From a virus (lineage: Duplodnaviria > Heunggongvirae > Uroviricota > Caudoviricetes): a stretch of 12,424 bases of DNA. Made by a program: the position numbers and the translations under genes. The stretch lies in IMG/VR virus record IMGVR_UViG_2737471831_000003, positions 1 through 12,424 of that record. One strand, written 5' to 3'. This document shows, in pieces, positions 1 to 12,070 of this stretch. Within the stretch, counting starts at the first letter, position 1. The number at the start of each line of letters is the position of its first letter. Under the pieces are notes generated by a model, which saw only the letters and a list, made by a program, of their open reading frames with translations, did not search any database and was not told where the DNA came from.

Positions 1-1131
1 TCACCATGCTACTTTGCTCCATCCTTTGCCTCGGTCGTCATGATAACGATCGGTTTGTTGTTGTGTTTTGTGACCAAGTAGTTTTTGTGTATCTAACCCC
101 TGTTCTTTATACAGGCGTTCAGATAACGACCTTTGCTCATGGAATGTTGCAGGTGAACCTTTCCCCCAGTCAATTCCTGCTAAGTCCCTCGCTTTACTGA
201 AATTCATCGTCAATGTGTTAGATTTAACCTGTGTTCCACGTTCAGCCTGTGAAGTCGTACGGGAAAAATGTACAAGGTATGGGCTGACTGCATAGTCACG
301 GCAGCGGGCTACTACATCGCGTAAACTCCAGTTAATCGCATTGAGGTGAAGAGAAAGAGGAATTGCGATTTTGCTCCCGGTCTTTTCCTGAATGACGTGA
401 AGATGATCCTCCCAAATATCACTAAATTTCATTTTGGATATATCTCCCAAACGCTGCCCAGTGACTAAAGCTAGGAGCATGGCATTTCCCATGTAACGAT
501 GAGTGGCGTCTGCGATATCGAATATTTTTTGCCATTCTTCCAGGCTGAGGCGTTGACGGGTAATTTTTCTTCTTGGTTGTTTAGTGGCTAATGCTGGGTT
601 ATAGCCAGGCGGAACTTCGCCGTAATGCTGTGCTTCCTTAAACACATCGATCAATACAGACCTTACGACTTGGGCCATTCTCGGCTGTCCCGCAGAGATA
701 TACTCTTCAAGCAATTGTGCTATATCTCTGACATCAACGGCCGAGATCAACTTCATTCCTGCTCTTTCCCTGAGCAAGGATACTGGTTTGGCTTTCTGCT
801 TATAGGTGTTGAGTCTTATATCACCACTTTTCAGCCTATCGTCTTGGATAGCCTGGTAACGGTCTAACCATGTAGATGTTGTGATCGCTTTTCCTTTGCT
901 GGTTGCGATCCTGTCACTGATAGCCAGAATCTGCCGGGTTCTTTGTTCAGCCAGTCGAGTGTTGGCCTCAGTGGCAATAGCGATAGCTTCAGCTTCGTTT
1001 GTTCCCAAAGCATGGAATTTTCCTGTTACTGGATGCTTATACCGCCAATAGACTTTATTTACCTTTCGGCTATAAAGCGGATATAAGTTAGGGACTGAAA
1101 CATTATTCTTACGCGGTCTGGCTGCCATCAC
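1..1131 (-). CDS. int: Tyrosine recombinase, lambda Int-family phage integrase
   Basis: 376-aa ORF. By-eye alignment to lambda Int: N-terminal PNLY arm-binding region; catalytic region TFHEQRSLSERLY...LLGHK...RYHDDRG (lambda: TFHELRSLSARLY...LLGHK...QYRDDRG) with conserved His and Tyr-nucleophile context. Stop codon at positions 1-3; first codon GTG at 1131, ATG at 1128; 5' end overlaps xis by 23 nt as in lambda. Confidence 0.93.
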   Translation of the reverse strand: MMAARPRKNNVSVPNLYPLYSRKVNKVYWRYKHPVTGKFHALGTNEAEAIAIATEANTRLAEQRTRQILAISDRIATSKGKAITTSTWLDRYQAIQDDRLKSGDIRLNTYKQKAKPVSLLRERAGMKLISAVDVRDIAQLLEEYISAGQPRMAQVVRSVLIDVFKEAQHYGEVPPGYNPALATKQPRRKITRQRLSLEEWQKIFDIADATHRYMGNAMLLALVTGQRLGDISKMKFSDIWEDHLHVIQEKTGSKIAIPLSLHLNAINWSLRDVVARCRDYAVSPYLVHFSRTTSQAERGTQVKSNTLTMNFSKARDLAGIDWGKGSPATFHEQRSLSERLYKEQGLDTQKLLGHKTQQQTDRYHDDRGKGWSKVAW

Positions 1132-1354
1132 TCAAAATCCGTTGCAAAAGTAATGAGTCATTTTTCTTAATTACTGGTGTTACCAGCTCTCCAACTAACT
1201 CGGCGTCCTCACGCACTCGCCATAACCGGCCTTGTTTCATGGCCGGTGGACAAAATAAATTCTGCTTAGCATAACGACGCAATGTGGACACACTTGGAGG
1301 ATTACTTCTGTATTTTTCAGAAGCCCATTCTTCAAGAGTTAACATTTGAAGCAT
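1109..1354 (-). CDS. xis: Excisionase (lambda Xis-like)
   Basis: 81-aa ORF; LTLEEW...PPSVSTLRRYAKQNLFCPP.K.GR resembles lambda Xis LTLQEW...PRSLETVRRWVRECRIFPPPVKDGR. RBS AAGGTGA 6 nt upstream of ATG at 1354 (second in-frame ATG at 1345). Overlaps the int start. Confidence 0.85.
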   Translation of the reverse strand: MLQMLTLEEWASEKYRSNPPSVSTLRRYAKQNLFCPPAMKQGRLWRVREDAELVGELVTPVIKKNDSLLLQRILSDGSQTA

Positions 1355-1397
1355 ATGCGATCACCTTATTACTTCACTAACTGTTCAGTCTCTGCAT

Positions 1398-1700
1398 ATC
1401 GACCCTGCAAGGTCGATTAGTTTCTCCACAAAACAGAGAAGAGCACCTGTGGCCACAACTACCAGGATGGATTGGGTTATGAGCCCGTCGTCCGGTGATG
1501 CTCTTCTCTGTTTTGTAAAAAGGACGGTACCAGCCGGAAGCAAGGGTACAAGCTGGTACCGCCAGGACTACACACAGCATAAAGTTGTGGTTCCGGGGGC
1601 CTCCCGGTGCCTGGCGAAGGTTGCACACCAGGCGGGTGGGTATCCACAGAAGGTCGACTGTCAGCCTCAACCTTAACCCGCGTGCGCTGAGCCGCATTCA
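1398..1700. other. GC-rich, highly self-complementary intergenic element (candidate structured RNA or protein-binding site); function unknown
   Basis: Contains a perfect 18-bp inverted repeat, a perfect 9-bp inverted repeat (1526-1534 GGTACCAGC / 1552-1560 GCTGGTACC, 17-nt loop) and a 7-bp hairpin (1398-1404 ATCGACC / 1411-1417 GGTCGAT). ORFs called here translate to Arg/Pro/Gly/Cys-rich peptides typical of non-coding GC-rich sequence. Confidence 0.35.
1428..1516. repeat. Perfect 18-bp inverted repeat flanking a 53-bp spacer
   Basis: 1428-1445 ACAAAACAGAGAAGAGCA is the exact reverse complement of 1499-1516 TGCTCTTCTCTGTTTTGT; read directly from the sequence. Confidence 0.85.
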
Positions 1701-1816
1701 CCACAACGCTAAGGATTCTCTCTGGTTGAAAATACTTAGCTGTTATGTGCCTGTCTTTTCACCACTTCAGGCTCGGTGGTATCCTTTTAAGCCCGTATTC
1801 ATAAAAGGAAAATCAA

Positions 1817-2062
1817 ATGACTTTTGATGAAAAAGAACTTGATAATGCAATTAATAAAATCATCGTAACGTCGCTCTTTTCCTGTCTCAGCGACACTCAG
1901 CAGAAACAGTTCTACGAATCGGCTTTCAACATGATCGAGCGTTGTTGTTTCTGCGATGCCGACGAGTTACCTGAAAAAATCAGGAAACAGTTGGCTGATG
2001 CTCTTCGAGTGCGACTTTTTGACCAATTTTCTGAAATGTACTCTCCGAATTTGGACAAATAG
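1817..2062 (+). CDS. Hypothetical small protein (81 aa)
   Basis: ATG at 1817 preceded by AAGGA (1805-1809) at 7-nt spacing; helical-looking, non-repetitive translation; imperfect hairpin 2073-2096 shortly after the stop. The 3' end overlaps the convergent minus-strand ORF 1980-2255, so only one of the two may be real. Confidence 0.45.
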   Translation: MTFDEKELDNAINKIIVTSLFSCLSDTQQKQFYESAFNMIERCCFCDADELPEKIRKQLADALRVRLFDQFSEMYSPNLDK

Positions 2063-2255
2063 AAAAAGGCCATTTCCATTCAGGGTCTGATGGAAAGACT
2101 TCAGCCTGTTCCAAAGCACGGCGTAAAGAGAACACAACTCCAGCCATAATCTGATGTTTCCCATTGGTCCAGCTATCGCCGCTCTGAGCTACAGGAGCGG
2201 CTATGTCGTATGACCAAACGACTTCACCACTATTGTTTAAAATCTGGACTTTCAT
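1980..2255 (-). CDS. Hypothetical protein (91 aa), early-left operon position
   Basis: ATG at 2255 lies 9 nt downstream of the stop of the zinc-finger ORF (operon-like packing); GGAGG is 12 nt upstream, a long spacing. The C-terminal third overlaps the plus-strand ORF 1817-2062 and passes through the 2073-2096 hairpin. Confidence 0.35.
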   Translation of the reverse strand: MKVQILNNSGEVVWSYDIAAPVAQSGDSWTNGKHQIMAGVVFSLRRALEQAEVFPSDPEWKWPFSICPNSESTFQKIGQKVALEEHQPTVS

Positions 2256-2263
2256 TTTGTTCT

Positions 2264-2485
2264 TTAACCTCCAGATTTCCGCGCATCTAAAGGCGCATTC
2301 TCATTTGGTGTGAACTGAATAGTTGTGCTGATATTGATTAATGCCCCGACACACAAGACTACGCACTCAGAGCAGATAGCAACTTCATCTTTTCCGCCTT
2401 TGGCGATGATTTTTTTTGCCTGCAGCTCGTTTGCGCCACAAAACGAGCATGTGAAATAACGGTTCATTTGCGCTCTCTTACACAT
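2264..2485 (-). CDS. Small protein with ClpX-type C4 zinc-finger motif
   Basis: CSFCGANELQAKKIIAKGGKDEVAICSECVVLC matches the ClpX N-terminal zinc-binding domain pattern (CSFCGK...x18...ICDECVDLC). Likely start is the internal ATG at 2467 (67 aa; GAGAG 5 nt upstream) rather than 2485. Confidence 0.7.
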   Translation of the reverse strand: MCKRAQMNRYFTCSFCGANELQAKKIIAKGGKDEVAICSECVVLCVGALINISTTIQFTPNENAPLDARKSGG

Positions 2486-2564
2486 AGTATTTAACGAATC
2501 ATCTTGGACTTCATATGCCCCAGGCGGCTACTTCGTGGGCGTCCTGCCTGTTCATTGTTTTAAC

Positions 2565-2625
2565 ATCTTTAAGTTGTAATTTAGTTGTGGTTTTGAATAT
2601 TGTCAACAACTTTATGTGGTTTGAA
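2565..2625. promoter_or_regulatory. Putative OL operator/promoter cluster (AAGTTGT / ACAACTT heptamers)
   Basis: AAGTTGT at 2571-2577, AGTTGTG at 2583-2589 and ACAACTTTATG at 2606-2616; the same heptamers and the ACAACTTTATG motif recur in the cI-cro intergenic region. Lies between divergent genes (zinc-finger ORF leftward, TerB/BRCT ORF rightward). Confidence 0.4.
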
Positions 2626-2669
2626 CGAGTAGCCAAGGAGTGCAAGGATTATCAAAAAAAGGAGGTTGT

Positions 2670-3560
2670 ATGGAAGACGCGCTTTACGCTTTTAATTACA
2701 CACAGAACCGGGACAAGTTATTTGCTAACTTGATTAGCATAATTGATGGAATCATTGCAGATGGAGTTGTCCGTGAAGAGGAGGTTCTTTACTTAGATAC
2801 ATGGTTACTTGAAGCAAAGCAGATTATCAATAATGGAGTTATAAAAAGTCTATCAGCACGGGTGTCGGATATTCTTGCGGATGGAATAATCACATCAGAA
2901 GAACGTGATGACCTTAAAAATAGCCTTCTCCAAATACAGAGGGAAATTCTTGATATCCCTGAAATTGATTTTTACTCCAAGGATGTAGATGTCCATTTAC
3001 TTAATGGACTATGTAAAGGATTAATTGCTGATCGGAACTTAACTCAAGAAGAAATAAGATATCTTAATTGGTGGCTTGAGCAAAATGGAGCTTTGAAGAA
3101 CAACTACCCAGGAAAAAAACTTTATGCACTTGTAAAGGAAATTCTTAAAGATGGGGTTATTACTGAAGATGAGAGTTTAACTCTACATAAGGCATTAGTA
3201 GACTTCACAGGATGTGACTTGGAAAGTGGGGTGGTGGATGGTTTGGCGACCAGGCTGCCTATTGATGTAGGGGCTTCGATAGAGTTAGAGGGTAAAACCT
3301 ATTGTCTTACAGGCACTTTTGTTGCAGGAAAGAGAGCCGTAGTTGAAAATTTGATTAAAAATGCTGGTGGGAACATCAGTAGTGGAATTACTCAAAAGTT
3401 GGATTTTTTAGTAATTGGGACGCTTTCCTCCCGTGATTGGAAATTCTCAAGTCACGGAAGGAAGATCGAAAAAGCTATATCTTATAGGGATGATAATGGT
3501 GCAAAACTTAAAATTATTTCTGAAGAAATGCTTTTCGATGCATTACCAAGTTCGCGATGA
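2670..3560 (+). CDS. Protein with four TerB-like helical repeats and a C-terminal BRCT domain (296 aa)
   Basis: ATG at 2670 preceded by AGGAGG (2660-2665); in-frame GTG at 2640. Four repeats of the form h-ADG-h-h-T/R-x-E-E (IADGVVREEEVLYL, LADGIITSEERDDL, IADRNLTQEEIRYL, LKDGVITEDESLTL) resemble TerB/DjlA-N motifs. C-terminus GKTYCLTGTFVAGKRAVVENLIKNAGGNISSGITQKLDFLVIG...KLKIISEEMLFDAL matches the BRCT pattern of NAD-ligase C-termini. AT-rich; 3' end overlaps the cI 3' end by 18 nt. Confidence 0.8.
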   Translation: MEDALYAFNYTQNRDKLFANLISIIDGIIADGVVREEEVLYLDTWLLEAKQIINNGVIKSLSARVSDILADGIITSEERDDLKNSLLQIQREILDIPEIDFYSKDVDVHLLNGLCKGLIADRNLTQEEIRYLNWWLEQNGALKNNYPGKKLYALVKEILKDGVITEDESLTLHKALVDFTGCDLESGVVDGLATRLPIDVGASIELEGKTYCLTGTFVAGKRAVVENLIKNAGGNISSGITQKLDFLVIGTLSSRDWKFSSHGRKIEKAISYRDDNGAKLKIISEEMLFDALPSSR

Positions 3561-4229
3561 CCAGAATACCCTACCTATAACATGAATTCTGGCTCGTCTA
3601 TCTTCAAAGGTGAGTATTTCATCTGGGTACTCATCTTTGTTGAAGCTTCTAAGAATCAAGCCACCGTCAGGTAAGTTGATAAGTATTTTAACCCTTAGCA
3701 ATACACCATCTCGTACGGCATAAAGATCGCCATCACGAATAGGAACGGTTTGAGAAATATCAACGGCAACAAGATCTCCATTATTGAGAACCGGTAATAA
3801 ACTGTTCCCCCATATTTTTACGATCTTGGCATTAGATGCACATACGCCAGATTTTCTCAAATCTGCTCTTCTTAACGGAAACCAGTCAATAGCTGATTCA
3901 ACTATTTCAGCCAGACATCCGTTACCTGCCGATAACTCGACATCTAAAACAGGAATGTTTACGAAAATATCGGGGTCTAATGCGGTGCTTTCTGCTTCTT
4001 TTACAACAAGATCAGGTATGGATGCGTTGTCTTCAATACCAAGTTGTAACCACTTTTGTGATACACCTAAAACTTTTGCAATTTCTTTAATTTTGCGCGG
4101 TTGTAGAGTTTCGCCATTCTCTATTTTGGCTACAGATTGTTGTGAAAGTCCAATTTTTTCAGCTAGTTGAGCTTGGCTCATGCCAGCTTTCTCTCTACCT
4201 ATCTTTAATCGTTCTGCCAGTGTTTTCAC
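3543..4229 (-). CDS. cI: Prophage repressor, cI/LexA-type (XRE HTH + S24 peptidase domain)
   Basis: 228 aa; N-terminal HTH (MSQAQLAEKIGLSQQSVAKIENGE); C-terminal S24-like autocleavage domain (GNSLLP...GDLVAVD...LLRVKIL). GTG start at 4229 with GAGGG 7 nt upstream; divergent from the cro-like gene. Confidence 0.9.
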   Translation of the reverse strand: MKTLAERLKIGREKAGMSQAQLAEKIGLSQQSVAKIENGETLQPRKIKEIAKVLGVSQKWLQLGIEDNASIPDLVVKEAESTALDPDIFVNIPVLDVELSAGNGCLAEIVESAIDWFPLRRADLRKSGVCASNAKIVKIWGNSLLPVLNNGDLVAVDISQTVPIRDGDLYAVRDGVLLRVKILINLPDGGLILRSFNKDEYPDEILTFEDRRARIHVIGRVFWSSRTW

Positions 4230-4254
4230 AACATATCCCTCTCTTTTTTGATGA

Positions 4255-4345
4255 GGTTACAACTTTATGTTTTAGCTTTCCAACACCTAAAAGTTGTGAT
4301 AAAAGTTGTTAATGTTGTATTCTTGCAACTCGTAACAACTTAACT
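4255..4345. promoter_or_regulatory. Putative OR operator/promoter region (pRM/pR) between cI and cro
   Basis: ACAACTT at 4259-4265 and 4335-4341; AAGTTGT at 4291-4297 and 4303-4309; these are the same half-sites as in the 2565-2625 cluster. Sits in the 135-bp divergent intergenic region. Confidence 0.5.
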
Positions 4346-4364
4346 ACCTAAAAAGGAGAAAGCT

Positions 4365-4613
4365 ATGACACCTGAGCAATTAGCCTTATCGGAGGCAATC
4401 GCTCTGGCTGGTGGTCAATCAGAATTGGCTCGGAAGCTCACAGCCAGCAGCGGTCATTTAGTAAAGCAACAACATGTCTGGAACTGGTTGAACAGAGAAA
4501 AGCGTCCCCCTGCAAAGCTCTCGATATTCATTGAAAAGACCACTGGCATATCAAAAGAAAAATTACGTCCAGATATTTTTCAAAAGATTAAAGATTCATC
4601 AGATGAAAAGTAA
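4365..4613 (+). CDS. Cro/YdaS-like small HTH regulator
   Basis: 82 aa; AGGAG at 4354-4358, 6 nt before the ATG; GGQSELARKL...V.NWL.......P......IEK.TG.SKEKLRPDIF pattern as in YdaS/Cro-type proteins; first gene rightward of the repressor. Confidence 0.8.
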   Translation: MTPEQLALSEAIALAGGQSELARKLTASSGHLVKQQHVWNWLNREKRPPAKLSIFIEKTTGISKEKLRPDIFQKIKDSSDEK

Positions 4614-4635
4614 CCACAGTTTTAAGGAGATAGCC

Positions 4636-5187
4636 GTGGGTAAGCATCACTGGAAAGTAGAAAAACAGCCTAAGTGGTACGTGAAAGCTGTCAGAAAAAC
4701 TATCGCAGCGTTGCCGGGGGGTTACGCTGAAGCTGCTGACTGGCTGGATGTAACAGAGAACGCATTATTTAACCGCCTTCGTGCCGATGGCGATCAGATT
4801 TTCCCGCTGGGATGGGCAATGATTTTGCAACGTGCTGGTGGAACTCACTTCATTGCTGACGCTGTGGCGCAGTCTGCAAATGGCGTCTTTGTGTCTCTTC
4901 CTGATATCGAGGATGTGGACAACGCCGATATCAACCAACGCCTGCTGGAGGTCATTGAACAGATCGGCAGTTATTCAAAACAGATTCGTTCAGCAATTGA
5001 AGACGGTGTAGTTGAACCGCATGAGAAGACAGCAATTAACGATGAGCTGTACCTCTCAATTTCGAAGCTGCAGGAGCATGCAGCACTGGTCTACAAAATC
5101 TTTTGCGTTTCAGAAAGTAGTGACGCCCGCGAGTGTGCAGCTCCGGGCGCCGTGGCGTGTCGTGACTGTGGAGAAACTAACGCATGA
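4636..5187 (+). CDS. Hypothetical regulatory protein in the cII position, possibly YdaT-family
   Basis: Strong RBS AAGGAG (4624-4629) 6 nt before in-frame GTG at 4636; alternative ATG at 4603 overlaps the cro stop. The family assignment is from memory of YdaS-YdaT pairs and is tentative. Confidence 0.55.
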
Positions 5188-5522
5188 ACAGTTTAACAAC
5201 ACACTACCGTCGCTCGCAACTGATTGCGCTTCCGGTTCCGGGTGGAAAAGCGAAGGTGGAGTATTGCTATGCAGTGAATGTACCAGGTGACAGGGAAATT
5301 GTAACCCACAGCTTTGCAGAGTGGGCTGTGGGTGATTTCAACCGGCAGAAGGAGACAGTCCTTTGCGACAAGTTAACCGCTGGTTCAAAGATCACTACGG
5401 AGTGCCCGTCAGAGTCATTCGTTGGGAACCGGAAACACAACGGGTTATCTACCTCCGCGAAGGTTATGAGCATGAATGCTTCAGTCCGCTCGAACAGTTT
5501 CGTCGTAAATTCAGGGAAATAG
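5184..5522 (+). CDS. Hypothetical protein (112 aa, ATG-initiated); C-terminal half doubtful
   Basis: ATG at 5184 overlaps the upstream stop (ATGA coupling). The N-terminal ~55 aa look protein-like, but the C-terminal half is Ser/Asn-rich and low-complexity, while an alternative frame over the same DNA looks more protein-like. Confidence 0.3.
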
Positions 5523-5542
5523 AGGTCGGTCATGAGCACTAA
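5363..5542 (+). CDS. Alternative small ORF (59 aa, TTG start), frame-2
   Basis: AAGGAG at 5349-5354 lies 8 nt before TTG at 5363. Translation [59 protein letters not shown] is charged and non-repetitive; stop at 5540-5542 overlaps the start of the replication gene. Confidence 0.35.
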
Positions 5543-6473
5543 ATTAACCGGCTATGTATGGGATGGTTGCGCTGCATCAGGCATGAAGTTATCCAGCGTG
5601 GCAATTATGGCCCGCCTGGCTGATTTCAGTAATGACGAAGGTGTGTGCTGGCCATCAATTGAAACCATTGCCCGTCAGATTGGCGCGGGGATGAGTACCG
5701 TCAGAACGGCTATCGCACGGCTGGAAGCAGAAGGCTGGTTAACGCGTAAGGCGCGTCGCCAGGGTAACCGCAATGCGTCGAATGTTTATCAGCTTAACGT
5801 TGCGAAGCTTCAGGCAGCGGCATTTTCTCAACTGTCAGATTCTGACCCGTCAAAATCTGACGCATCAAAATCTGACCCGTCAAAATTTGATGCGTCGAAA
5901 TCTGGGAAAAAAGCGGGTTTTCACCCGTCAGAATCTGGTGGGGATCCGTCAGTAAAATCAAAACATGATCCGTCAGATAAAAAACCTTCTCGTCCGGACG
6001 CTTCGCAACCGGACACGCAGAAGGCTGAACAGGATTTTTTAACTCGCCATCCTGATGCGGTTGTATTCAGCCCTAAAAAGCGCCAGTGGGGAACGCAGGA
6101 TGATTTGACCTGCGCACAGTGGCTCTGGAAAAAAATCATCGCCCTGTACGAGCAGGCCGCCGAATGTGACGGCGAGGTGGTTCGTCCCAAAGAACCGAAC
6201 TGGACAGCCTGGGCAAACGAAATTCGCCTGATGTGTGTGCAGGATGGTCGTACTCACAAACAAATCTGCGAGATGTACAGCCGCGTCAGCCGCGATCCGT
6301 TCTGGTGCCGTAACGTGCTCAGCCCGTCGAAGCTGCGGGAAAAATGGGATGAGCTTTCCCTGCGCTTATCGCCGTCCGTCAGCACGTACACCGAAAAACG
6401 CGAAGACCCGTACTTCAAAGCCAGTTACGACAACGTGGACTACAGCCAGATCCCGGCAGGATTCAGGGGGTGA
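5532..6473 (+). CDS. Phage replication initiation protein (N-terminal winged-HTH, low-complexity linker, DnaT-like C-terminus)
   Basis: 313 aa; GAGGT 5 nt before the ATG. N-terminal HTH typical of phage replication initiators (SIETIARQIGAGMSTVRTAIARLEAEGWL); central SDPSK-type linker encoded by the iteron array; C-terminus ends ...NWTAWANEIRL...QIPAGFRG, resembling (from memory) the C-terminal domain of primosomal protein DnaT (...IPPGFRG). Confidence 0.8.
   Translation: MSTKLTGYVWDGCAASGMKLSSVAIMARLADFSNDEGVCWPSIETIARQIGAGMSTVRTAIARLEAEGWLTRKARRQGNRNASNVYQLNVAKLQAAAFSQLSDSDPSKSDASKSDPSKFDASKSGKKAGFHPSESGGDPSVKSKHDPSDKKPSRPDASQPDTQKAEQDFLTRHPDAVVFSPKKRQWGTQDDLTCAQWLWKKIIALYEQAAECDGEVVRPKEPNWTAWANEIRLMCVQDGRTHKQICEMYSRVSRDPFWCRNVLSPSKLREKWDELSLRLSPSVSTYTEKREDPYFKASYDNVDYSQIPAGFRG
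5831..5985. repeat. Iteron-like direct repeat array (15-bp period), candidate replication origin
   Basis: Four consecutive 15-bp units at 5842-5901 (CTGACCCGTCAAAAT, CTGACGCATCAAAAT, CTGACCCGTCAAAAT, TTGATGCGTCGAAAT), plus degenerate CCGTCAG-containing copies to about 5980 and an A-rich stretch (5976-5985). Confidence 0.6.
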
Positions 6474-6475
6474 TC

Positions 6476-6964
6476 ATGAGTCTTTTGAATGAAGTTCAGA
6501 AATTCATTGAAGCCCATCCGGGGTGTACTTCCGGAGACATTGCGGATGCTTTTGCAGGTTATTCACGGCAGCGCGTTCTGCAGTCTGCAAGCAAGTTACG
6601 TCAGAGTGGGCGTGTGGCTCACCGTTGTGAAGGAGATACACGCAGACATTTCCCGCGCCTGACTGAGAGAGCGCAGGAGCCGGAACCACAACCAGTTCGT
6701 GAAACCAGACCTGTGCGCAATTTCTATGTCGGCACTAACGATCCCCGGGTGATTTTGTGCCTGACCCGCCAGGCTGAAGAACTGGAGTCAAGGGGCTTAT
6801 ACCGTCGTGCTGCAACCGTGTGGATGGCGGCATTCCGTGAAAGCCACTCCCAGCCAGAACGAAACAATTTTCTGGCGCGTCGTGAGCAGTGCTTACAGAA
6901 AAGCAGCAAGCGCGCTGCATCGGGTGAAGAGTGGTATCTGTCAGGGAATTACGTGGGGGCGTAA
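6476..6964 (+). CDS. PerC-like transcriptional regulator domain protein
   Basis: ATG at 6476 with GGGGG 5 nt upstream (GTG at 6470 also in frame). C-terminal AEELESRGLYRRAATVWMAAF resembles the PerC/Pch motif (A..LE.RGLWRRAA..W), recalled from memory. Confidence 0.55.
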   Translation: MSLLNEVQKFIEAHPGCTSGDIADAFAGYSRQRVLQSASKLRQSGRVAHRCEGDTRRHFPRLTERAQEPEPQPVRETRPVRNFYVGTNDPRVILCLTRQAEELESRGLYRRAATVWMAAFRESHSQPERNNFLARREQCLQKSSKRAASGEEWYLSGNYVGA

Positions 6965-7290
6965 TGACGACGTTAACTCAATGCCAGCAGCAGGTGCTGG
7001 ATATGCTGATTTCTTATCAGAAAGAGCGTGGCTTTCCGCCAACCAATCAGGAGGTGGCAACCATGCTGGGATACCGTTCGGTGAATGCAGCGGTGGAGCA
7101 TCTTCGCGCACTGGAGAAAAAAGGCGTCATCACGATAAAGCGTGGCGTGGCACGGGGGATAACGCTTCATACCGCTGTGAAGGACGACGACAGCGAGGCG
7201 GTCGGGATTATCCGCGCACTGCTTGCCGGTGAGGAAAACGCCAGGCTGCGTGCAGCCCACTGGTTACATGAGAGGGGCCTGAAAGTATGA
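6964..7290 (+). CDS. LexA N-terminal DNA-binding-domain-only protein (no S24 peptidase domain)
   Basis: ATG at 6964 overlaps the upstream stop (TAATG). QQQVLDMLISYQKERGFPPTNQEVATMLGYRSVNAAVEHLRALEKKGVITIKRGVARGITL aligns closely with E. coli LexA residues ~8-70 ([61 protein letters not shown]). The protein ends after ~108 aa with no catalytic Ser/Lys domain. Confidence 0.8.
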   Translation: MTTLTQCQQQVLDMLISYQKERGFPPTNQEVATMLGYRSVNAAVEHLRALEKKGVITIKRGVARGITLHTAVKDDDSEAVGIIRALLAGEENARLRAAHWLHERGLKV

Positions 7291-7676
7291 AGCTGATTCT
7301 GCCTTTTCCGCCCAGCGTGAACACGTACTGGCGACACCCCAACAAAGGGGCGTTTGCTGGTAAGAGCCTGATAAGCGCGGCGGGGCGCAAATTCCAGAGC
7401 GCGGCGTGTGCAGCAATAGTTGAGCAGTTACGTCGTCTGCCAAAACCAACGTCGGCACCTGCTTCAGTGGAGATCGTGTTGTTTCCACCGGATAACCGGA
7501 TCCGCGATCTGGACAACTATAACAAGGCGCTGTTTGACGCCCTGACCCACGCGGGTGTGTGGGAGGACGACAGTCAGGTGAAAAGAATGCTGGTGGAGTG
7601 GGGGCCGGTTATCCCGGAAGGGAAGGTCGAGATCACTATCAGTAAGTACGAGAAAACGGCGGGTGCAGCCGCCTGA
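7287..7676 (+). CDS. rusA: Holliday-junction resolvase RusA
   Basis: 129 aa; LPFPPSVNTYWR and RDLDNYNKALFDALTHAGVWEDDSQV match the RusA motifs ([38 protein letters not shown]). ATG overlaps the upstream stop (ATGA). Confidence 0.92.
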   Translation: MKLILPFPPSVNTYWRHPNKGAFAGKSLISAAGRKFQSAACAAIVEQLRRLPKPTSAPASVEIVLFPPDNRIRDLDNYNKALFDALTHAGVWEDDSQVKRMLVEWGPVIPEGKVEITISKYEKTAGAAA

Positions 7677-7695
7677 TTAAGAGGAGAAACGAAGT

Positions 7696-8493
7696 ATGAA
7701 TAATCTGATGGTCATTGATGGTATTGAAGTTCGTCGTGATGCTTATGGGCGTTACAGCCTGAACGATCTGCACAGGGCTGCCGGTTCTCAGGATAAGCAT
7801 AAGCCTGCATTTTGGCTCCGCAATGAGCAAACCGAACGTTTAATAAGCGAGTTGCAGATTTGCAACTCGGTCAATATAGAGCCAGTTAACGTTATTCGTG
7901 GCGGAAATAACCAGGGGACGTATGTCTGCAAAGAACTGGTGTATGCCTATGCAATGTGGATCAGTCCGTCATTCCATCTGAAGGTGATCCGTACTTTCGA
8001 TATGGTAACCAGCGCACCGGAAAAATTATCCGGGCAGGCTGCTGACAAGATGCAGGCTGGTGTGATTCTGCTGGACTTTATGCGTCGGGAGTTAAACCTG
8101 TCTAACTCATCTGTGCTTGGGGCCTGTCAGAAACTCCAGGAGGCTGTTGGTTTACCGAATCTGGCACCGCGCTATGCCATTGATGCCCCTGCTGATGCAC
8201 ACGATGGCTCAAGTCGCCCGACACTGTCACTGAGTGCACTGCTGAAACAGTATGGTATCCGCCTTACGGCTAATCAGGCATATCACCAGATGGTGAAACT
8301 GGGGATCGTCGAACAGCGCGAACGATACAGCCGTACCGCGATTAATAACATCAAAAAATTCTGGTCGCTGACGGCGAAAGGCTGCATGTTCGGCAAGAAC
8401 ATCACCAGTCCGGCAAATCCGCGTGAGACGCAGCCGCATTTCTTCGAATCCCGATTCCCTGAGCTGTTAAAGCTGCTCGATACCGTTCATTGA
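7696..8493 (+). CDS. KilA-N domain protein
   Basis: 265 aa; GAGGAG RBS at 7681-7686. N-terminal ~100 aa (IDGIEVRRDAYGRYSLNDLHRAAG...PAFWLRNEQT...YVCKELVYAYAMWISPSFHLKVIRTF) fit the KilA-N DNA-binding domain pattern. Confidence 0.8.
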   Translation: MNNLMVIDGIEVRRDAYGRYSLNDLHRAAGSQDKHKPAFWLRNEQTERLISELQICNSVNIEPVNVIRGGNNQGTYVCKELVYAYAMWISPSFHLKVIRTFDMVTSAPEKLSGQAADKMQAGVILLDFMRRELNLSNSSVLGACQKLQEAVGLPNLAPRYAIDAPADAHDGSSRPTLSLSALLKQYGIRLTANQAYHQMVKLGIVEQRERYSRTAINNIKKFWSLTAKGCMFGKNITSPANPRETQPHFFESRFPELLKLLDTVH

Positions 8494-8494
8494 G

Positions 8495-9490
8495 GTGACC
8501 GTGAGAGCGCTACTGACCCCTGAGATTGCCCCGCGTATGGGGATCGTATTGTTCAGACCCGGTTCAGAGCTGATGCCCCTGTTTATGCAGGGGCGTGTCC
8601 TGCTGGAGCCTGAGCCGGAGCGTTATTCATCTTTCGCCAGTGGTGCCGTTCCGGCGGCATCACAACCGCTGGCGGATGATCCTGCCGTTCGGGCCGTGTT
8701 CCGCAATGAGGCAGTGATCCGTCGTGCTGGTGGCGTGGAATGTCTTGAAAGCTGGTTACTTCGTGAAAAAGGCTGCCAGTGGCCTCATTCCGACTGGCAC
8801 AGCGAGAACATGACAACAATGCGACACGCTCCGGGCGCAATCCGTCTGTGCTGGCACTGCGATAACCAGCTGCGCGATCAGTTCACGGAACGGCTGGAAT
8901 CAATGGCAACGGATAACTGTGCCCGCTGGGTGTTGTCTGTTGTGCGTCGGGATCTCGGTTTTGATGATAGTCACGTTGTGACAATGCCGGAACTGTGCTG
9001 GTGGCTGATTCGTAATGACCTGGCGGATGCCTTACCGGAAAGTGCAGCCCGTAAGGCACTGAGATTACCGAGGCCTGTTGTGCCGTCTGTCACCCGGGAA
9101 AGTGACCTTGTGCCTTCGGTTCCTGCCACCAGCATCATCCAGGATAAAGCGAAAAAGGTGCTGGCGCTGAAAGTGGATCCGGAGTCGCCGGAGTCTTTTA
9201 TGTTACGCCCAAAACGTCGCCGCTGGGTTAATGAAAAGTACACGCGCTGGGTTAAGACACAGCCGTGTGCATGTTGTGGAAAGCCTGCTGATGATCCCCA
9301 CCACCTGATAGGTCACGGTCAGGGTGGAATGGGAACAAAAGCGCATGACCTCTTTGTGTTGCCTTTGTGCAGAAAGCATCACGACGAGCTGCATGCGGAT
9401 ACCGTGGCATTTGAAGAGAAGTATGGCTCCCAGCTGGAGCTGATATTTCGTTTTATCGATCGTGCGCTGGCAATTGGCGTGCTGGCCTGA
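8495..9490 (+). CDS. DUF968-like phage protein with C-terminal Cys/His-rich (HNH-like) motif
   Basis: 331 aa; likely start GTG at 8501 (GAGG 5 nt upstream) rather than 8495. C-terminal CACCGKPADDPHHLIGHGQGG...HDLFVLPLCRKHHDELH is a zinc-binding/HNH-like signature; the position after rusA/KilA-N matches DUF968 genes in Qin-type prophages (from memory). Confidence 0.65.
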   Translation: MTVRALLTPEIAPRMGIVLFRPGSELMPLFMQGRVLLEPEPERYSSFASGAVPAASQPLADDPAVRAVFRNEAVIRRAGGVECLESWLLREKGCQWPHSDWHSENMTTMRHAPGAIRLCWHCDNQLRDQFTERLESMATDNCARWVLSVVRRDLGFDDSHVVTMPELCWWLIRNDLADALPESAARKALRLPRPVVPSVTRESDLVPSVPATSIIQDKAKKVLALKVDPESPESFMLRPKRRRWVNEKYTRWVKTQPCACCGKPADDPHHLIGHGQGGMGTKAHDLFVLPLCRKHHDELHADTVAFEEKYGSQLELIFRFIDRALAIGVLA

Positions 9491-9507
9491 TTTTGTGGAG
9501 AAAGTTG

Positions 9508-9855
9508 ATGCGTGATATGTATGAAGTATTGGACCGCTGGGGAGCATGGGCTGCAGCAGATAACAGTGGCGTGGACTGGCAGCCGATAGCTGCAGGCTTC
9601 AAGGGGCTTTTACCTCATGGCAAAAAGTCCCGGATTCAGTGTGATGATGACGAAGGCATTATGATAGACAGTTGTGTGGCTCGGTTGAGAAAGTATAAAC
9701 CAGAGGAATATGAGCTAATCATAGCTCACTTTGTCATTGGTATCTCATTACGCACTATTGCCAAGAAGAGAAGATGTTCAGATGGCACAGTTAGGAAAAA
9801 ATTGCAGACTGCCTTGGGGTTTGTTGAAGGATGTATTTGTTTGATTGAGTTCTAA
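9508..9855 (+). CDS. Q: Late-gene antiterminator Q (phage 82/QuuD-like family)
   Basis: ATG at 9508 with GGAG 7 nt upstream (an upstream TTG at 9493 is also in frame). VLDRWGAWAA...DWQPIAAGFKGLL...SRIQCDDDEGIM resembles E. coli QuuD as recalled; Cys pairs consistent with a Q zinc finger; last early-right gene before the lysis cassette. Confidence 0.75.
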   Translation: MRDMYEVLDRWGAWAAADNSGVDWQPIAAGFKGLLPHGKKSRIQCDDDEGIMIDSCVARLRKYKPEEYELIIAHFVIGISLRTIAKKRRCSDGTVRKKLQTALGFVEGCICLIEF

Positions 9856-9883
9856 AAAGAATGAGGCGTAAGCCTCATTCTTT
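9856..9883. terminator. Bidirectional intrinsic terminator between Q and the convergent membrane-protein gene
   Basis: Perfect 12-bp stem (9856-9867 AAAGAATGAGGC / 9872-9883 GCCTCATTCTTT) with GTAA loop, A-run on one side and T-run on the other. The minus-strand gene's stop codon (9875-9877) lies in the stem. Confidence 0.75.
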
Positions 9884-10444
9884 ATCTTTAATTATAAGTT
9901 TCGATTTTTCATCATGCATTTTGTCTATCATAAAATACATACCTAATGCCGTTGTGTATATAATGTTGCATATGGTACTTAAATAAATAAACAAAAGTAA
10001 TGATTTCACTAGTGGATATGATGAAAGGTGTAATTCCTTGATGCTTGCACTGGTTAGTTGAAGTGCTCCTCCAACGAAATACAGCGCGATGCTCATAAAC
10101 GCTAAATAACCAAATAGATAAGTGAGGAATTTACGCCTTGTAAGTTTTTTACCTTTTAATACCGGAGGTATGCCATGCATAACTTCATCCATACCATCCT
10201 TACTGAAGGTTGCAACTGCAGCCATAGATGCAATGTAAAAACCAGATAGTATTTGAAGTATCCCGTTTACTAAAGACACAAGACTATCCTTCCCGAGAAG
10301 TGAGATGGTTTTCGGTAAGTAATAGATGGATAAAGTAATAATTGCAGCAGTGAAAATGGGTAAAACCCAGTCAAAAAATCGCTTCTCAGGATGCTTTATG
10401 CGTAGGTAGTCTATAGGTGTAAAAACCTTAGATAAAACATACAT
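9875..10444 (-). CDS. Small integral membrane protein, 4 predicted TM helices (189 aa)
   Basis: Start ATG at 10444 with AGGAGG 5 nt upstream (the longer ORF to 10537 would overlap the upstream gene). Four hydrophobic segments: FFDWVLPIFTAAIITLSIYYL, LVSLVNGILQILSGFYIASMAAVATF, FLTYLFGYLAFMSIALYFVGGAL, LVKSLLLFIYLSTICNIIYTTALGMYFMI. AT-rich. Confidence 0.75.
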   Translation of the reverse strand: MYVLSKVFTPIDYLRIKHPEKRFFDWVLPIFTAAIITLSIYYLPKTISLLGKDSLVSLVNGILQILSGFYIASMAAVATFSKDGMDEVMHGIPPVLKGKKLTRRKFLTYLFGYLAFMSIALYFVGGALQLTSASIKELHLSSYPLVKSLLLFIYLSTICNIIYTTALGMYFMIDKMHDEKSKLIIKDKE

Positions 10445-10476
10445 ATATGCCTCCTTTTGACAGGTTTTCCATGCCT

Positions 10477-11412
10477 TCACTTTAACATAAAGTTTTGCAT
10501 TTTTGCGAGAAGTTCTTCGTGAAATGCTGTTTGGCAAACGGCAATTGTTGATGCCAACACTGCTTTTTCACGTTGTGCCAATTGTGCTGTTGCGAGTTCC
10601 TGTAAGCTCATTTCTTTTCCGATGGAAACAAGATCTGATGAAACGCGTTTATTTTTGTCTTTATAAGAAATTCTTAACATTGTATACTTTCTACCACGAA
10701 GTTTGTCATATGCAGACTTAATCGCCTTAATTGCACCCTCTCCGCGACGTATTTTTGTTGATAGCTTTAGTGTTTCTTCTTCAACCATTACTGTGCCATC
10801 ATCATCTAAAGAGTTATCTTTAAAGCGACGAGTAGCAGTAAGTCCACATAAATAACCAGTGGATAGAGATTGCTCAAGTGTTGTTGCAGCCAAAAAATCA
10901 ATGTCGAAAATAGGTCTGCACTTAAGTTCTTTTTTCCCTCCTGAACGGATAAAGGAAAAATTATTTTCTCGCAGGAAATAAGTTAAAGCTTGGGCTAATA
11001 AACCTCTGGTAATGCCCGGAACTTCTTCTAAAATTGCCTCATAACAATCTTGGAATGATGAGTCGCTCGGTCTTTTTTTGATAAGCACATGAGCAGAGTA
11101 CCCCATACCTTCATCATTTTGCTTTTTCTCAATTCTGGTTTCACCAGTTTTTATGTTGGAAAAGGCGGGATCAGAAGCATCTTTATTTATATATTGAAAA
11201 AGCAATTTCAGGTAATTTTCATCGTCTTTTATGGATAGCAATCTTATGACAGAACGTCCTTTGTTTAATTCGTAAACAGCTTCTCCTTTGTTATAGCGAT
11301 TTTTTAAAACAGGAATACAGTTTACTAAAGGCATGTCAGGTGCGTCATTAGGATACTTCTTTAAAGTAACCTGGCATTTGATCATGAAACGTTCATTATC
11401 TCCCAAGAGCAT
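10477..11412 (-). CDS. Hypothetical soluble protein (311 aa) with a possible Pol-beta-type nucleotidyltransferase signature
   Basis: ATG at 11412 with AAGGA 6 nt upstream; AT-rich. IRSGGKKELKCRPIFDIDFL (residues ~156-175) fits the hG[GS]-x9-13-DhDh pattern; an acidic cluster SLDDDG lies ~30 residues downstream. No family recognised with confidence. Confidence 0.7.
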   Translation of the reverse strand: MLLGDNERFMIKCQVTLKKYPNDAPDMPLVNCIPVLKNRYNKGEAVYELNKGRSVIRLLSIKDDENYLKLLFQYINKDASDPAFSNIKTGETRIEKKQNDEGMGYSAHVLIKKRPSDSSFQDCYEAILEEVPGITRGLLAQALTYFLRENNFSFIRSGGKKELKCRPIFDIDFLAATTLEQSLSTGYLCGLTATRRFKDNSLDDDGTVMVEEETLKLSTKIRRGEGAIKAIKSAYDKLRGRKYTMLRISYKDKNKRVSSDLVSIGKEMSLQELATAQLAQREKAVLASTIAVCQTAFHEELLAKMQNFMLK

Positions 11413-11472
11413 ATCTGTTCCTTATACGAGCACTAATACTGATTGCTGTTTTTAGTTCAGCAGAACCAAAGG

Positions 11473-11501: not shown

Positions 11502-11566
11502 TTTCACTAACGCGTACGCAAAAAGTATTGTATCGTGTTAAGAGTGGTTACTTCGCCACACAACTT

Positions 11567-12067: not shown

Positions 12068-12070
12068 TTT

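What the first reader, a model, noticed from the sequence alone, without database searches (positions are those of the whole stretch)
5184..5542. Ambiguous coding frame between the cII-position gene and the replication gene: possible frameshifted or mis-started gene
Seen: the ATG-initiated 112-aa frame (5184-5522) is protein-like only in its first ~55 residues and then becomes Ser/Asn-rich low-complexity. Over the same DNA a second frame (TTG at 5363 with AAGGAG 8 nt upstream, stop at 5542) encodes a compositionally normal, charged 59-aa peptide that the ATG-only ORF track just misses. Either a short TTG-initiated gene is the real one, or an ancestral ~115-aa gene has suffered a -1 frameshift near 5335-5365, which would fit the decay seen at R.
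Basis: seen in the sequence. Interest (0 to 1): 0.45.

Follow-up and report, generated by a model that had tools for sequence, protein, structure and literature searches.

The report
Two overlapping prophage genes: ymfM and DUF4222
The "ambiguous" stretch is not a broken gene: it holds two overlapping genes in different reading frames, the known cell-division inhibitor ymfM and a more conserved small DUF4222 gene, so it is unsettled which protein actually blocks division.

Summary
The window is an e14/SfII-like lambdoid prophage of E. coli.

- **5184-5522:** this is ymfM, 98% identical to K-12 b1148, the "cell division inhibitor YmfM" (SfiC).
- **5363-5542:** this TTG ORF is a full-length DUF4222 gene (PF13973, E=8.6e-19). 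NCBI's PGAP annotates exactly these coordinates.

The frameshift-decay reading fails, and so does the either/or framing. In about 40 diverged loci from many enterobacterial genera:
- DUF4222 has its own start and ribosome-binding site and is under strong purifying selection (dN/dS 0.05-0.08).
- The first ~58 codons of ymfM are a conserved, fast-evolving domain (dN/dS 0.3-0.5).
- The ymfM tail that overlaps DUF4222 has no sequence conservation and is predicted disordered. Even so, its frame is open in 41 of 41 unique sequences.
- Purine-ending codons that would create a stop are absent at 158 of 158 critical codons, against 45% purine at other four-fold sites. RgdR-type DUF4222 genes carry 2-4 stops in that frame.
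- The ymfM frame starts on the upstream gene's stop (ATGA) and ends on the ribosome-binding site of the replication gene.

I read this as two genuinely overlapping genes. The ymfM tail probably serves as a translated bridge that carries ribosomes to the replication gene (inferred). Published ymfM experiments did not separate the two frames.

The parts
4636..5187 (+). ymfL, the CII-like regulator gene (context). Its TGA stop overlaps the ymfM ATG.
   Evidence: Pfam Phage_CP76 E=3.4e-13 and NCBIfam phage_reg_YmfL E=1.1e-49. PGAP annotation in L001.
5184..5187 (+). ATGA start/stop overlap between ymfL and ymfM, the usual geometry of translational coupling.
   Evidence: Read in the sequence. The same 'acgcATGA' junction is present in nearly all of about 40 related loci.
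5184..5522 (+). ymfM ORF, 112 aa, a homologue of K-12 b1148 'cell division inhibitor YmfM' (SfiC).
   Evidence: 110/112 identical to K-12 YmfM. phrog_1170 E=1.9e-69. K-12 annotation. Homologues of 112-117 aa down to about 44% identity.
5184..5360 (+). Conserved N-terminal domain of YmfM (about 58 aa), the only part of the protein under amino-acid constraint.
   Evidence: Alignments A1 and A4. dN/dS 0.30-0.48 in frame 0, with no excess of synonymous change in the other two frames. Polymorphic sites in 79 close copies fall 2/6/14 by codon position. Stand-alone 63-78-aa forms exist: phrog_20047, P0056, P0070, phiNP. N-domain types A, B and C are homologous by hhalign, 94-96% probability.
5349..5354 (+). 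Shine-Dalgarno sequence AAGGAG of the DUF4222 gene, 8 nt before the TTG.
   Evidence: Read in the sequence. GGAG/GGAGG lies upstream of the DUF4222 start in the other loci.
5363..5542 (+). DUF4222 gene: 59 aa, TTG start, -1 frame relative to ymfM.
   Evidence: PF13973 E=8.6e-19. phrog_1343 E=2.1e-34. PGAP CDS WP_001250269.1 at these coordinates. dN/dS 0.05-0.08 with saturated synonymous sites. Substitutions by codon position 5/1/27 against the Klebsiella phage. AlphaFold2 pLDDT 82.8, a five-stranded SH3/Tudor-like barrel.
5363..5522 (+). The 160-nt dual-coding stretch. The DUF4222 frame carries the amino-acid constraint. The ymfM frame is constrained only to stay open.
   Evidence: The ymfM frame is open in 41/41 unique sequences. 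The chance of this under synonymous recoding is 0.06 per gene with E. coli codon usage and 0.36 with within-gene permutation. Critical Leu/Val codons use only C/T endings. Tree-based test P about 3e-7. RgdR-type DUF4222 genes have 2-4 stops in this frame in 44/44 sequences.
5520..5525 (+). The ymfM stop TAG abutting AGG. Together they form the Shine-Dalgarno region (GAGG 5522-5525) of the replication gene, 6 nt before its ATG.
   Evidence: Read in the sequence. A TAG/TAA followed by AGG or GG, usually 9 nt before the ATG, is present in about 35 of 38 loci. It is created by the rare A-ending DUF4222 codons ATA, TTA or CTA.
5532..6473 (+). O-like replication initiator gene, in the same frame as ymfM. 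Its first 11 nt overlap the end of DUF4222.
   Evidence: Pfam HTH_36 E=4.3e-11 and weak DnaD_N/RP-C hits. Annotated as replication protein O or primosomal protein in phage records.

Best explanation
The region holds two genuine genes that overlap out of frame, in the early-right operon of an e14/SfII-like lambdoid prophage. Gene 1 is ymfM (5184-5522). It has a fast-evolving but conserved N-terminal domain of about 58 aa, followed by a tail of about 52 aa. Gene 2 is a DUF4222 gene (5363-5542, TTG start, own AAGGAG). It is read in the -1 frame across the ymfM tail and encodes a small, highly conserved SH3/Tudor-like beta-barrel related to the prophage regulator RgdR. Shown here: DUF4222 carries essentially all the amino-acid constraint in the overlap. 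The ymfM tail has no sequence constraint and is predicted disordered. Its frame is nevertheless kept free of stop codons. It begins on the stop of the CII-like gene ymfL (ATGA) and ends on the Shine-Dalgarno sequence of the replication gene. Inferred: ribosomes pass from ymfL into ymfM and are carried through the DUF4222 coding sequence to terminate about 9 nt before the replication-gene ATG. This couples replication-protein synthesis to the upstream genes. On this view the tail acts mainly as a translated bridge whose length and end point matter, not its sequence. DUF4222 is made by independent internal initiation. Also inferred: the filamentation assigned to 'ymfM' (SfiC) could come from the YmfM N-domain, from the whole protein or from DUF4222, because the published clones carried both.
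For: Identity of the genes. DUF4222 frame under strong purifying selection: dN/dS 0.05-0.08, pS 0.57-0.85, substitutions 5/1/27 by codon position; 13 of 14 polymorphic sites in the overlap of close copies are third positions. ymfM N-domain coding in frame 0: dN/dS 0.30-0.48, conserved alignments, three homologous subtypes. Stop avoidance in the ymfM tail: open in 41/41 unique sequences from about 25 genera, against an expected 0.06 (codon usage) or 0.36 (within-gene permutation) per gene, while the third frame is closed in all. At Leu/Val codons where a synonymous change would create a stop, only CTC/CTT (58/58) and GTC/GTT (110/110) occur, whereas CTG is 27/51 and GTR 17/56 elsewhere in the same genes. 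Seventeen parsimony changes at these sites are all C<->T, while 58% of 180 changes at other four-fold sites are pyrimidine<->purine, giving P about 3e-7, or about 1e-5 without the Leu-Glu column. Negative control: RgdR-type DUF4222 genes have 2-4 stops in that frame in 44/44 sequences. Geometry: the ATGA start and a stop beside the replication gene's Shine-Dalgarno sequence persist across 4-5 unrelated replication-gene types, and also where DUF4222 itself runs 41-90 nt into the replication gene. In Providencia the N-domain ORF ends early, and a separate 58-aa ORF starts on its stop (ATGA), spans DUF4222 and ends 4 nt before the replication ATG. The tail is predicted disordered. The two differences between the window and K-12 YmfM both lie in the tail and are silent in DUF4222.
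Against: There is no direct evidence here or in the papers found (ribosome profiling, proteomics) that either frame is translated; only transcript induction of 'ymfM' is reported. The sequences are related, so 41/41 is not 41 independent trials, and the conservative permutation null is only 0.36 per gene. The conserved TA of the stop could partly reflect extended Shine-Dalgarno complementarity (TAAGGAGG) rather than selection for termination. DUF4222 also terminates next to the replication start in the 59-aa forms, so it could provide coupling by itself. That weakens the need for a bridge. In SfV-type phages the ymfM frame does not stop there but runs on into a Rha-like gene. No conserved RNA structure was found at the DUF4222 start. 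The coupling mechanism is inference only.
Confidence: 0.7

Rival explanations
1. Full-length YmfM is the functional unit, and its disordered tail matters as protein (for example as a degron, a flexible linker or a contact with FtsZ or the divisome). The frame is kept open for that reason, not for translational coupling.
For: The pBAD clone of the 112-aa ORF causes strong filamentation. Homologues keep a length of 112-117 aa down to about 44% identity. The frame is kept open by selection.
Against: The tail sequence is unconstrained. DUF4222 synonymous sites, which are second codon positions in the tail frame, are saturated (pS 0.57-0.85) and at least as divergent as those of the non-overlapping N region. 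Tail composition is largely dictated by the conserved DUF4222 codons. N-domain-only proteins of 63-78 aa exist where DUF4222 is absent or the frames differ. The published clone also carried the DUF4222 ribosome-binding site and 53 of its 59 codons, if the annotated ORF was what was cloned.
Confidence: 0.25
2. Only DUF4222 and a short N-terminal ymfM peptide are meaningful. The open ymfM frame across DUF4222 is an accident of DUF4222's conserved sequence and shared ancestry.
For: Within-gene synonymous permutation leaves the frame open 36% of the time on average. All the loci share ancestry. The tail has no sequence conservation.
Against: Synonymous sites are saturated between lineages, yet no stop has ever arisen. 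At critical sites C and T interchange repeatedly (17 events) with no purine, P about 3e-7. The common codons CTG and GTG are used at non-critical sites of the same genes. RgdR-type DUF4222 genes are closed in this frame in 44/44 sequences. The third frame is closed everywhere.
Confidence: 0.08
3. One reading: an ancestral single-frame gene of about 115 aa (N-domain plus DUF4222) suffered a -1 frameshift near 5335-5365, so the region is decaying.
For: A few database proteins fuse the N-domain to DUF4222 in one frame: P0031, P0053, P0059, P0065, P0090.
Against: Those fusions switch frame at four or more different places and are rare (1-14 sequences). The two-frame layout is the conserved state in all 36 species loci and in the phage records. 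DUF4222 has its own conserved start and ribosome-binding site, with a stop 9 codons upstream in its frame. Both parts are under purifying selection. All 79 close E. coli/Shigella copies keep both ORFs intact.
Confidence: 0.02
4. A programmed -1 ribosomal frameshift makes an N-domain-DUF4222 fusion protein, as with lambda G/GT.
For: DUF4222 is always in the -1 frame relative to the N-domain ORF and always overlaps it.
Against: There is no X XXY YYZ slippery heptamer anywhere in frame 0 of 5184-5522 and no homopolymer run of 5 or more. The window available for slipping is only 27 nt (5336-5362). DUF4222 has a conserved start codon and ribosome-binding site of its own. No conserved RNA structure was found downstream. 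The frame-0 ORF continues for 52 more codons rather than ending soon after a slip site.
Confidence: 0.03
5. Only the 112-aa YmfM is real, and the DUF4222 hit is a shadow of translating its coding sequence in the wrong frame.
For: K-12 annotation lists only ymfM. An experimental phenotype is attached to that name.
Against: Amino-acid conservation in the overlap is 78-92% in the DUF4222 frame and 44-56% in the ymfM frame, and substitutions pile up on DUF4222 third positions. DUF4222 includes RgdR, a genetically characterised protein in a different context with no overlapping ORF. The AlphaFold2 model is confident.
Confidence: 0.02

Closest known systems
YmfM / SfiC of the E. coli K-12 e14 prophage (b1148)
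   Same: 98% identical over 112 aa. Same position between ymfL and the replication gene. K-12 e14 contains the identical embedded DUF4222 ORF.
   Different: Nothing substantive differs in the sequence. What differs is the reading. The literature treats ymfM as a simple 112-aa gene, whereas only its first ~58 codons are conserved as protein and the rest overlaps a more conserved gene that is not annotated in K-12.
RgdR (ECs1581), a DUF4222 prophage regulator of EHEC O157:H7 (Flockhart et al. 2012, PMC3378721)
   Same: Same Pfam domain: RgdR PF13973 E=2.1e-23. 41% identity over 49 aa, E=3e-11. Both are small prophage proteins encoded immediately upstream of, and overlapping, a replication gene; RgdR overlaps a primase gene by 4 nt.
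   Different: RgdR is 99 aa, with an N-terminal extension, an RGD motif at residues 20-22 and a basic C-terminal tail. The window protein is 59 aa and has V-N-R at the aligned positions. RgdR lies in a P4-like element, has no ymfM-like partner, and its +1 frame is full of stops. RgdR's activities (LEE1 activation, motility repression, non-specific DNA binding) have not been tested for this subfamily.
Rz/Rz1 of phage lambda (an out-of-frame gene embedded in another gene). Basis: established knowledge, not tested here.
   Same: A small gene with its own start is read in another frame inside a longer gene of a lambdoid phage, and both are expressed.
   Different: In Rz/Rz1 both products are sequence-constrained partners of one complex, and Rz1 lies wholly inside Rz. 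Here the host frame has no sequence constraint in the overlap, the embedded gene runs 20 nt past it, and no functional link between the two proteins is known.
Translationally coupled operon junctions, such as ATGA overlaps or termination within or beside the next gene's Shine-Dalgarno sequence (for example trpE-trpD, trpB-trpA). Basis: established knowledge.
   Same: ATGA at the ymfL/ymfM junction, and the ymfM stop abutting the replication gene's GAGG, 6-9 nt before its ATG.
   Different: Here the proposed coupling ORF must cross another complete gene in a different frame to reach the junction. Coupling itself has not been measured.

Membership tests
DUF4222 (Pfam PF13973) | Score above the Pfam gathering threshold, with near full-length domain coverage | tested here: met
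   67.3 bits against a cut-off of 27, E=8.6e-19, profile positions 3-52 of 53.
DUF4222 (Pfam PF13973) | Purifying selection acting in this reading frame | tested here: met
   dN/dS 0.05-0.08. Substitutions 5/1/27 by codon position. 13 of 14 polymorphic sites in the overlap are third positions.
DUF4222 (Pfam PF13973) | Independent start codon with a ribosome-binding site | tested here: met
   TTG 5363 with AAGGAG 8 nt upstream. ATG or GTG with GGAG/GGAGG in 33 other species loci.
DUF4222 (Pfam PF13973) | Protein product detected | not testable with these tools
   No proteomic or ribosome-profiling data were available. Papers report only transcript induction of 'ymfM'.
YmfM (K-12 b1148, phrog_1170) | Sequence identity to K-12 YmfM over the full length | tested here: met
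   110/112 identical. phrog_1170 E=1.9e-69, positions 1-112 of 112.
YmfM (K-12 b1148, phrog_1170) | Position between ymfL (CII-like) and the replication gene of an e14-like prophage | tested here: met
YmfM (K-12 b1148, phrog_1170) | [quoted passage not shown] | not testable with these tools
   Reported for the K-12 ORF clone. The clone did not separate the two frames.
RgdR family of prophage regulators | DUF4222 core domain | tested here: met
RgdR family of prophage regulators | RGD motif at the position of RgdR residues 20-22, reported as important for T3SS activation | tested here: not met
   The BLASTP alignment starts at RgdR Y24 against window F8. By position, RgdR RGD corresponds to window V4-N5-R6.
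RgdR family of prophage regulators | Protein of about 99 aa with N- and C-terminal extensions (63-aa truncated forms are known) | tested here: not met
   The window protein is 59 aa and consists of the core domain only.
Frameshifted pseudogene | Intact single-frame homologues are the common or ancestral state | tested here: not met
   Fusions are rare and have different junctions. The two-frame layout is present in all 36 species loci.
Programmed -1 ribosomal frameshift (lambda G/GT type) | Slippery heptamer X XXY YYZ in the upstream frame within the overlap | tested here: not met
   None in 5184-5522.
Programmed -1 ribosomal frameshift (lambda G/GT type) | Downstream frame lacks its own initiation signals | tested here: not met
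   Conserved start codon and ribosome-binding site.
Out-of-frame overlapping gene pair | Both frames show evidence of selection (coding constraint or stop avoidance) across diverged lineages | tested here: met
   DUF4222 shows amino-acid constraint. The ymfM frame shows stop avoidance, with a negative control.
Translationally coupled gene chain | Start/stop overlaps, or termination within about 10 nt of the next start | tested here: met
   ATGA at 5184-5187. TAG 5520-5522 lies 9 nt before ATG 5532. Both are conserved.
Translationally coupled gene chain | Downstream expression depends on upstream translation | not testable with these tools
   This needs reporter fusions with frame-specific stop mutations.

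The most novel reading that the evidence does not exclude
The 160-nt overlap is a true dual-coding region kept across the Enterobacteriaceae. One frame (DUF4222) is selected for its protein. The other (the ymfM tail) is selected only to stay open and to end on the replication gene's ribosome-binding site, so it acts as a sequence-independent translational bridge. A consequence is that the SOS-inducible division inhibitor SfiC, assigned to 'ymfM' in 2020-21, may in fact be the 58-aa N-domain alone or the embedded RgdR-like DUF4222 protein.
Probability: 0.35. Interest if true: 0.65.

Novelty: new member of a known kind. Interest (0 to 1): 0.5.

Why it matters
Each gene is already known on its own. 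ymfM is in EcoCyc/K-12, and DUF4222 is in Pfam and in PGAP annotations. But databases annotate one or the other, and I found no paper that notes the overlap.

Three consequences follow.

1. **Attribution of SfiC.** The experiments that assigned the 35-year-old SfiC division-inhibition phenotype to YmfM used DNA that also carries the DUF4222 ribosome-binding site and nearly all of its ORF, if the annotated ORF is what was cloned (the 2013 library clone carried all of it). The gene deletions remove both genes. The responsible polypeptide is therefore not established. Three point mutations, each silent in the other frame, can settle it.

2. **Stop avoidance without sequence constraint.** The pair is a clean natural example of an ORF kept open with no amino-acid constraint. 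That pattern points to a role for the act of translation, such as coupling to the replication gene, rather than for the product.

3. **A lead on DUF4222 function.** DUF4222 genes sit directly upstream of replication genes in two unrelated prophage types, lambdoid and P4-like (RgdR). This suggests a conserved, unexplored link between this small Tudor-like protein and the start of phage replication or early regulation.

Tried and rejected
- **Frameshift decay.** Rejected on comparative grounds.
- **Programmed -1 frameshift.** There is no slippery heptamer and no homopolymer run.
- **RNA structure at the DUF4222 start.** In the window, a hairpin pairing AAGGAG with UCCUUU (including part of the TTG) is predicted (z=-2.3, 1 of 200 shuffles). 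RNAalifold on 21 diverged loci found no shared structure at all, so it is not a conserved feature.
- **Structure at the other two junctions.** The ymfL/ymfM and ymfM/replication-gene junctions fold no better than shuffles.
- **Rfam.** No hit anywhere in the window.
- **Fold of YmfM.** The AlphaFold2 model is too poor for a fold search (pLDDT 49.8), so none was run.
- **Source genome.** The 100%-identical 501-nt match (NZ_CM128598.1) is not the source of the whole window. No genome in the collection covers more than 84% of it, so I did not transfer that record's annotation outside 4636-6473.
- **Papers not reached.** Mehta et al. 2004 and the journal version of Ansari et al. are not held. The preprint's primer table is not held either, so the exact ends of the ymfM clone are unknown.
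Full report
**What is in the sequence**

- Frame 0 runs from ATG 5184 to TAG 5520-5522 and encodes 112 aa.
- A second ORF runs from TTG 5363 to TAA 5540-5542 and encodes 59 aa. It lies in the -1 frame relative to the first.
- AAGGAG sits at 5349-5354, 8 nt before the TTG.
- The nearest upstream stop in the TTG frame is TGA 5333-5335.
- The frame-0 ATG overlaps the TGA stop of the upstream gene (ATGA, 5184-5187).
- The frame-0 stop lies 9 nt before ATG 5532 of the downstream gene. The 59-aa ORF ends 8 nt after that ATG.

**What the genes are**

The window is an e14/SfII-like lambdoid prophage of E. coli. Its genes include an integrase, an S24-peptidase repressor, a YdaS-type Cro, YmfL (CII-like), an O-like replication protein, PerC, RusA, KilA-N, DUF968 and Q.

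The 112-aa ORF is ymfM. It is 110/112 identical to K-12 b1148, annotated "cell division inhibitor YmfM". The 59-aa TTG ORF is a full-length DUF4222 domain protein (PF13973, E=8.6e-19, profile positions 3-52 of 53). PGAP annotates it at exactly these coordinates as WP_001250269.1 and does not annotate ymfM. The K-12 annotation does the opposite, although K-12 e14 carries the identical DUF4222 ORF. PHROGs holds both as separate families, plus a 63-aa family that matches only the ymfM N-terminus.

**Comparative evidence, frame by frame**

I collected 36 loci, one per species across about 25 enterobacterial genera. I added phage records from Klebsiella, Escherichia, Shigella and Citrobacter phages.

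*DUF4222 frame.* Against relatives about 74% identical in DNA, the overlap gives 78-92% amino-acid identity in this frame. dN/dS is 0.05-0.08, synonymous sites are saturated (pS 0.57-0.85), and substitutions fall 5/1/27 on codon positions 1/2/3. Nearly all relatives start with ATG at the same codon, preceded by GGAG or GGAGG.

*ymfM frame, upstream of the overlap.* The first ~58 codons behave as coding sequence in frame 0 only (dN/dS 0.30-0.48). They are conserved in homologues. Three divergent N-domain subtypes are homologous by profile comparison (94-96% probability).

*ymfM frame, inside the overlap.* The tail is only 44-56% identical between lineages. Its apparent dN/dS is far above 1, which is an artefact of the overlap. 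AlphaFold2 gives residues 67-112 a pLDDT below 50, with block means of 32-39 from residue 71.

*Close copies.* Among 79 near-identical E. coli/Shigella copies, both ORFs are intact in all. Polymorphic sites fall 2/6/14 by frame-0 codon position in the N region and 1/0/13 by DUF4222 codon position in the overlap. The two residues that differ between the window and K-12 YmfM both lie in the tail and are silent in DUF4222.

**Why it is not a decayed frameshift**

- The two-frame arrangement is the conserved state in every locus examined.
- The few database proteins that join the N-domain to DUF4222 in one frame switch frame at four or more different positions. They have 1-14 member sequences, against more than 1,700 for the 112-aa form.
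- The N-domain also occurs alone in Citrobacter phage phiNP (65 aa). P0056 and P0070 are short homologues (76-78 aa) that end before the tail region; their downstream DNA was not examined.
- A programmed -1 frameshift is unlikely. There is no slippery heptamer or homopolymer run, DUF4222 has its own start signals, and there is no conserved RNA structure.

**The unexpected part: the ymfM frame is kept open**

The tail has no sequence conservation, yet the ymfM frame is free of stops across the DUF4222 domain in 41 of 41 unique sequences. The third frame closes within 5-110 nt in every one.

- **Recoding null.** Random synonymous recoding of each DUF4222 gene leaves the ymfM frame open with mean probability 0.06 (E. 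coli codon usage) or 0.36 (permuting the gene's own synonymous codons).
- **Site-by-site view.** At Leu/Val codons where a synonymous codon would create a stop in the ymfM frame, only CTC/CTT (58/58) and GTC/GTT (110/110) are used. Elsewhere in the same genes CTG is 27/51 and GTA/GTG 17/56.
- **Tree-based test.** On a neighbour-joining tree, these critical third positions changed at least 17 times, always C<->T. At other four-fold sites 45% of cells hold a purine, and 58% of 180 changes are pyrimidine<->purine. This gives P about 3e-7, or about 1e-5 if the Leu-Glu column is left out, since G is allowed there.
- **Negative control.** RgdR-type DUF4222 genes from P4-like prophages have no ymfM-like partner. 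They carry 2-4 stops in the same frame in 44 of 44 unique sequences.

So the open frame is not a property of the DUF4222 sequence. It is specific to the ymfM context.

**Geometry**

In nearly all loci the ymfM-type ORF starts on the stop of the CII-like gene (ATGA). It ends at a TAG or TAA immediately followed by AGG or GG, usually 9 nt before the replication gene's ATG.

That stop is built from the rare A-ending DUF4222 codons ATA, TTA or CTA. It holds its position next to the replication gene's ribosome-binding site in three situations:
- with 4-5 unrelated types of replication gene downstream;
- when DUF4222 has one- or two-codon insertions;
- when DUF4222 itself extends 41-90 nt into the replication gene.

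In Providencia the N-domain ORF ends early. A separate 58-aa ORF then begins on its stop (ATGA), spans DUF4222 and ends 4 nt before the replication ATG.

There are two caveats. The TA of the stop may partly reflect extended Shine-Dalgarno complementarity. And SfV-type phages have no stop there, so the frame runs on into a Rha-like gene.

**Interpretation**

Shown:
- There are two overlapping ORFs, each with comparative signatures of selection.
- DUF4222 is selected for its protein sequence.
- ymfM is selected for its N-domain sequence and, in the tail, only for staying open.

Inferred:
- The tail is translated as a bridge that brings ribosomes from ymfL/ymfM to the replication gene's start (termination-reinitiation coupling).
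- DUF4222 is made by internal initiation.

The main rival is that the disordered tail matters as protein. The saturated divergence at tail second-codon positions argues against this, but it is not excluded.

**What the proteins may do**

The one characterised family member is RgdR (ECs1581) of EHEC. It is a 99-aa prophage protein that activates LEE1/T3SS, represses motility and binds DNA non-specifically. It shares 41% identity with the window protein over the core. The window protein lacks RgdR's RGD motif and terminal extensions. Like the window gene, rgdR lies directly upstream of, and overlaps, a replication gene, in its case a primase.

**Link to the literature on ymfM**

Ansari et al. 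(bioRxiv 10.1101/2020.11.19.390815) cloned "the open reading frame" of ymfM into pBAD24. They observed filamentation with loss of Z-rings, independent of SulA, SlmA and MinC, and concluded that ymfM is sfiC.

If the annotated ORF is what was cloned, the fragment contains the DUF4222 ribosome-binding site and 53 of its 59 codons. That is the whole Pfam domain, and residues 56-59 have pLDDT below 50 in the model. The exact clone ends could not be checked. The 2013 library clone carried the entire DUF4222 gene, and the deletions remove both genes. The preprint describes no frame-specific mutations. I found no paper that mentions the overlap. Which polypeptide inhibits division is therefore open, and it can be settled with point mutations that are silent in the other frame (listed under next steps).

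**Verdict**

The ATG ORF is not an artefact either. The genes are individually known, so this is not a new kind of system. It is a newly recognised out-of-frame overlapping pair, with clear statistical support for stop avoidance and a concrete consequence for a published functional assignment. Interest is moderate (0.5).

Noticed in passing
window 5841-5904: A tandem array of a 15-bp unit (TCTGACCCGTCAAAA, 4.3 copies, 81% matches) lies inside the O-like replication gene. It encodes the repeated peptide DPSKSDASKS. By analogy with lambda, where the origin iterons lie within gene O, this may be the prophage replication origin.
   Followed up: partly
window 5267-5539 (- strand): A 90-aa GTG ORF runs antisense to the dual-coding region. 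The equivalent ORF is annotated as a CDS (URC10551.1) in phage record ON470622.1 in place of ymfM or DUF4222. Given the substitution pattern on the + strand, it is most likely a shadow ORF.
   Followed up: partly
L009 (phage SfV) 1534-2370; also L010 and L044: SfV orf37, annotated as a 278-aa 'transcriptional regulator', is a run-on ORF. It joins a ymfM-like N-terminus (MNSLTANN...), the alternative frame of an unannotated DUF4222-like gene (starting about L009:1683), a spacer and a Rha-like domain. In this lineage the ymfM frame has no stop before the next gene.
   Followed up: partly
L045 (Providencia heimbachae) 2281-2671: A variant layout. The ymfM-N-like ORF ends at 2493. A separate 58-aa ORF (2490-2666) starts on that stop (ATGA), spans the whole DUF4222 gene in the alternative frame and ends 4 nt before the replication gene's ATG at 2671.
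   Followed up: partly
L002 (K-12 MG1655) 5002-5181 = NC_000913.3 1204001-1204180: K-12 e14 carries an intact DUF4222 ORF identical in protein sequence to the window's, and it is not annotated in NC_000913.3. PGAP-annotated genomes, conversely, omit ymfM. Public annotations of this locus are mutually inconsistent.
   Followed up: yes
L127 (O157:H7 Sakai) 3720-4019: rgdR (ECs1581), the only characterised DUF4222 gene, also lies immediately upstream of a replication gene (a primase) and overlaps it by 4 nt. DUF4222 genes thus precede replication genes in two unrelated prophage types.
   Followed up: partly
window 5346-5366: A predicted hairpin pairs the DUF4222 Shine-Dalgarno sequence (AAGGAG) with UCCUUU, which includes part of the TTG start (fold of 5325-5400, z=-2.3). 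It is not shared by the ATG-start lineages: RNAalifold found no consensus structure.
   Followed up: yes
window 1-12424; 2640-3560 (+) and 10477-11412 (-): The window is a mosaic. No complete E. coli genome in the collection covers more than 84% of it. It carries a 306-aa BRCT-domain protein next to the repressor, and a 311-aa minus-strand ORF after the Q gene with no Pfam match.
   Followed up: no
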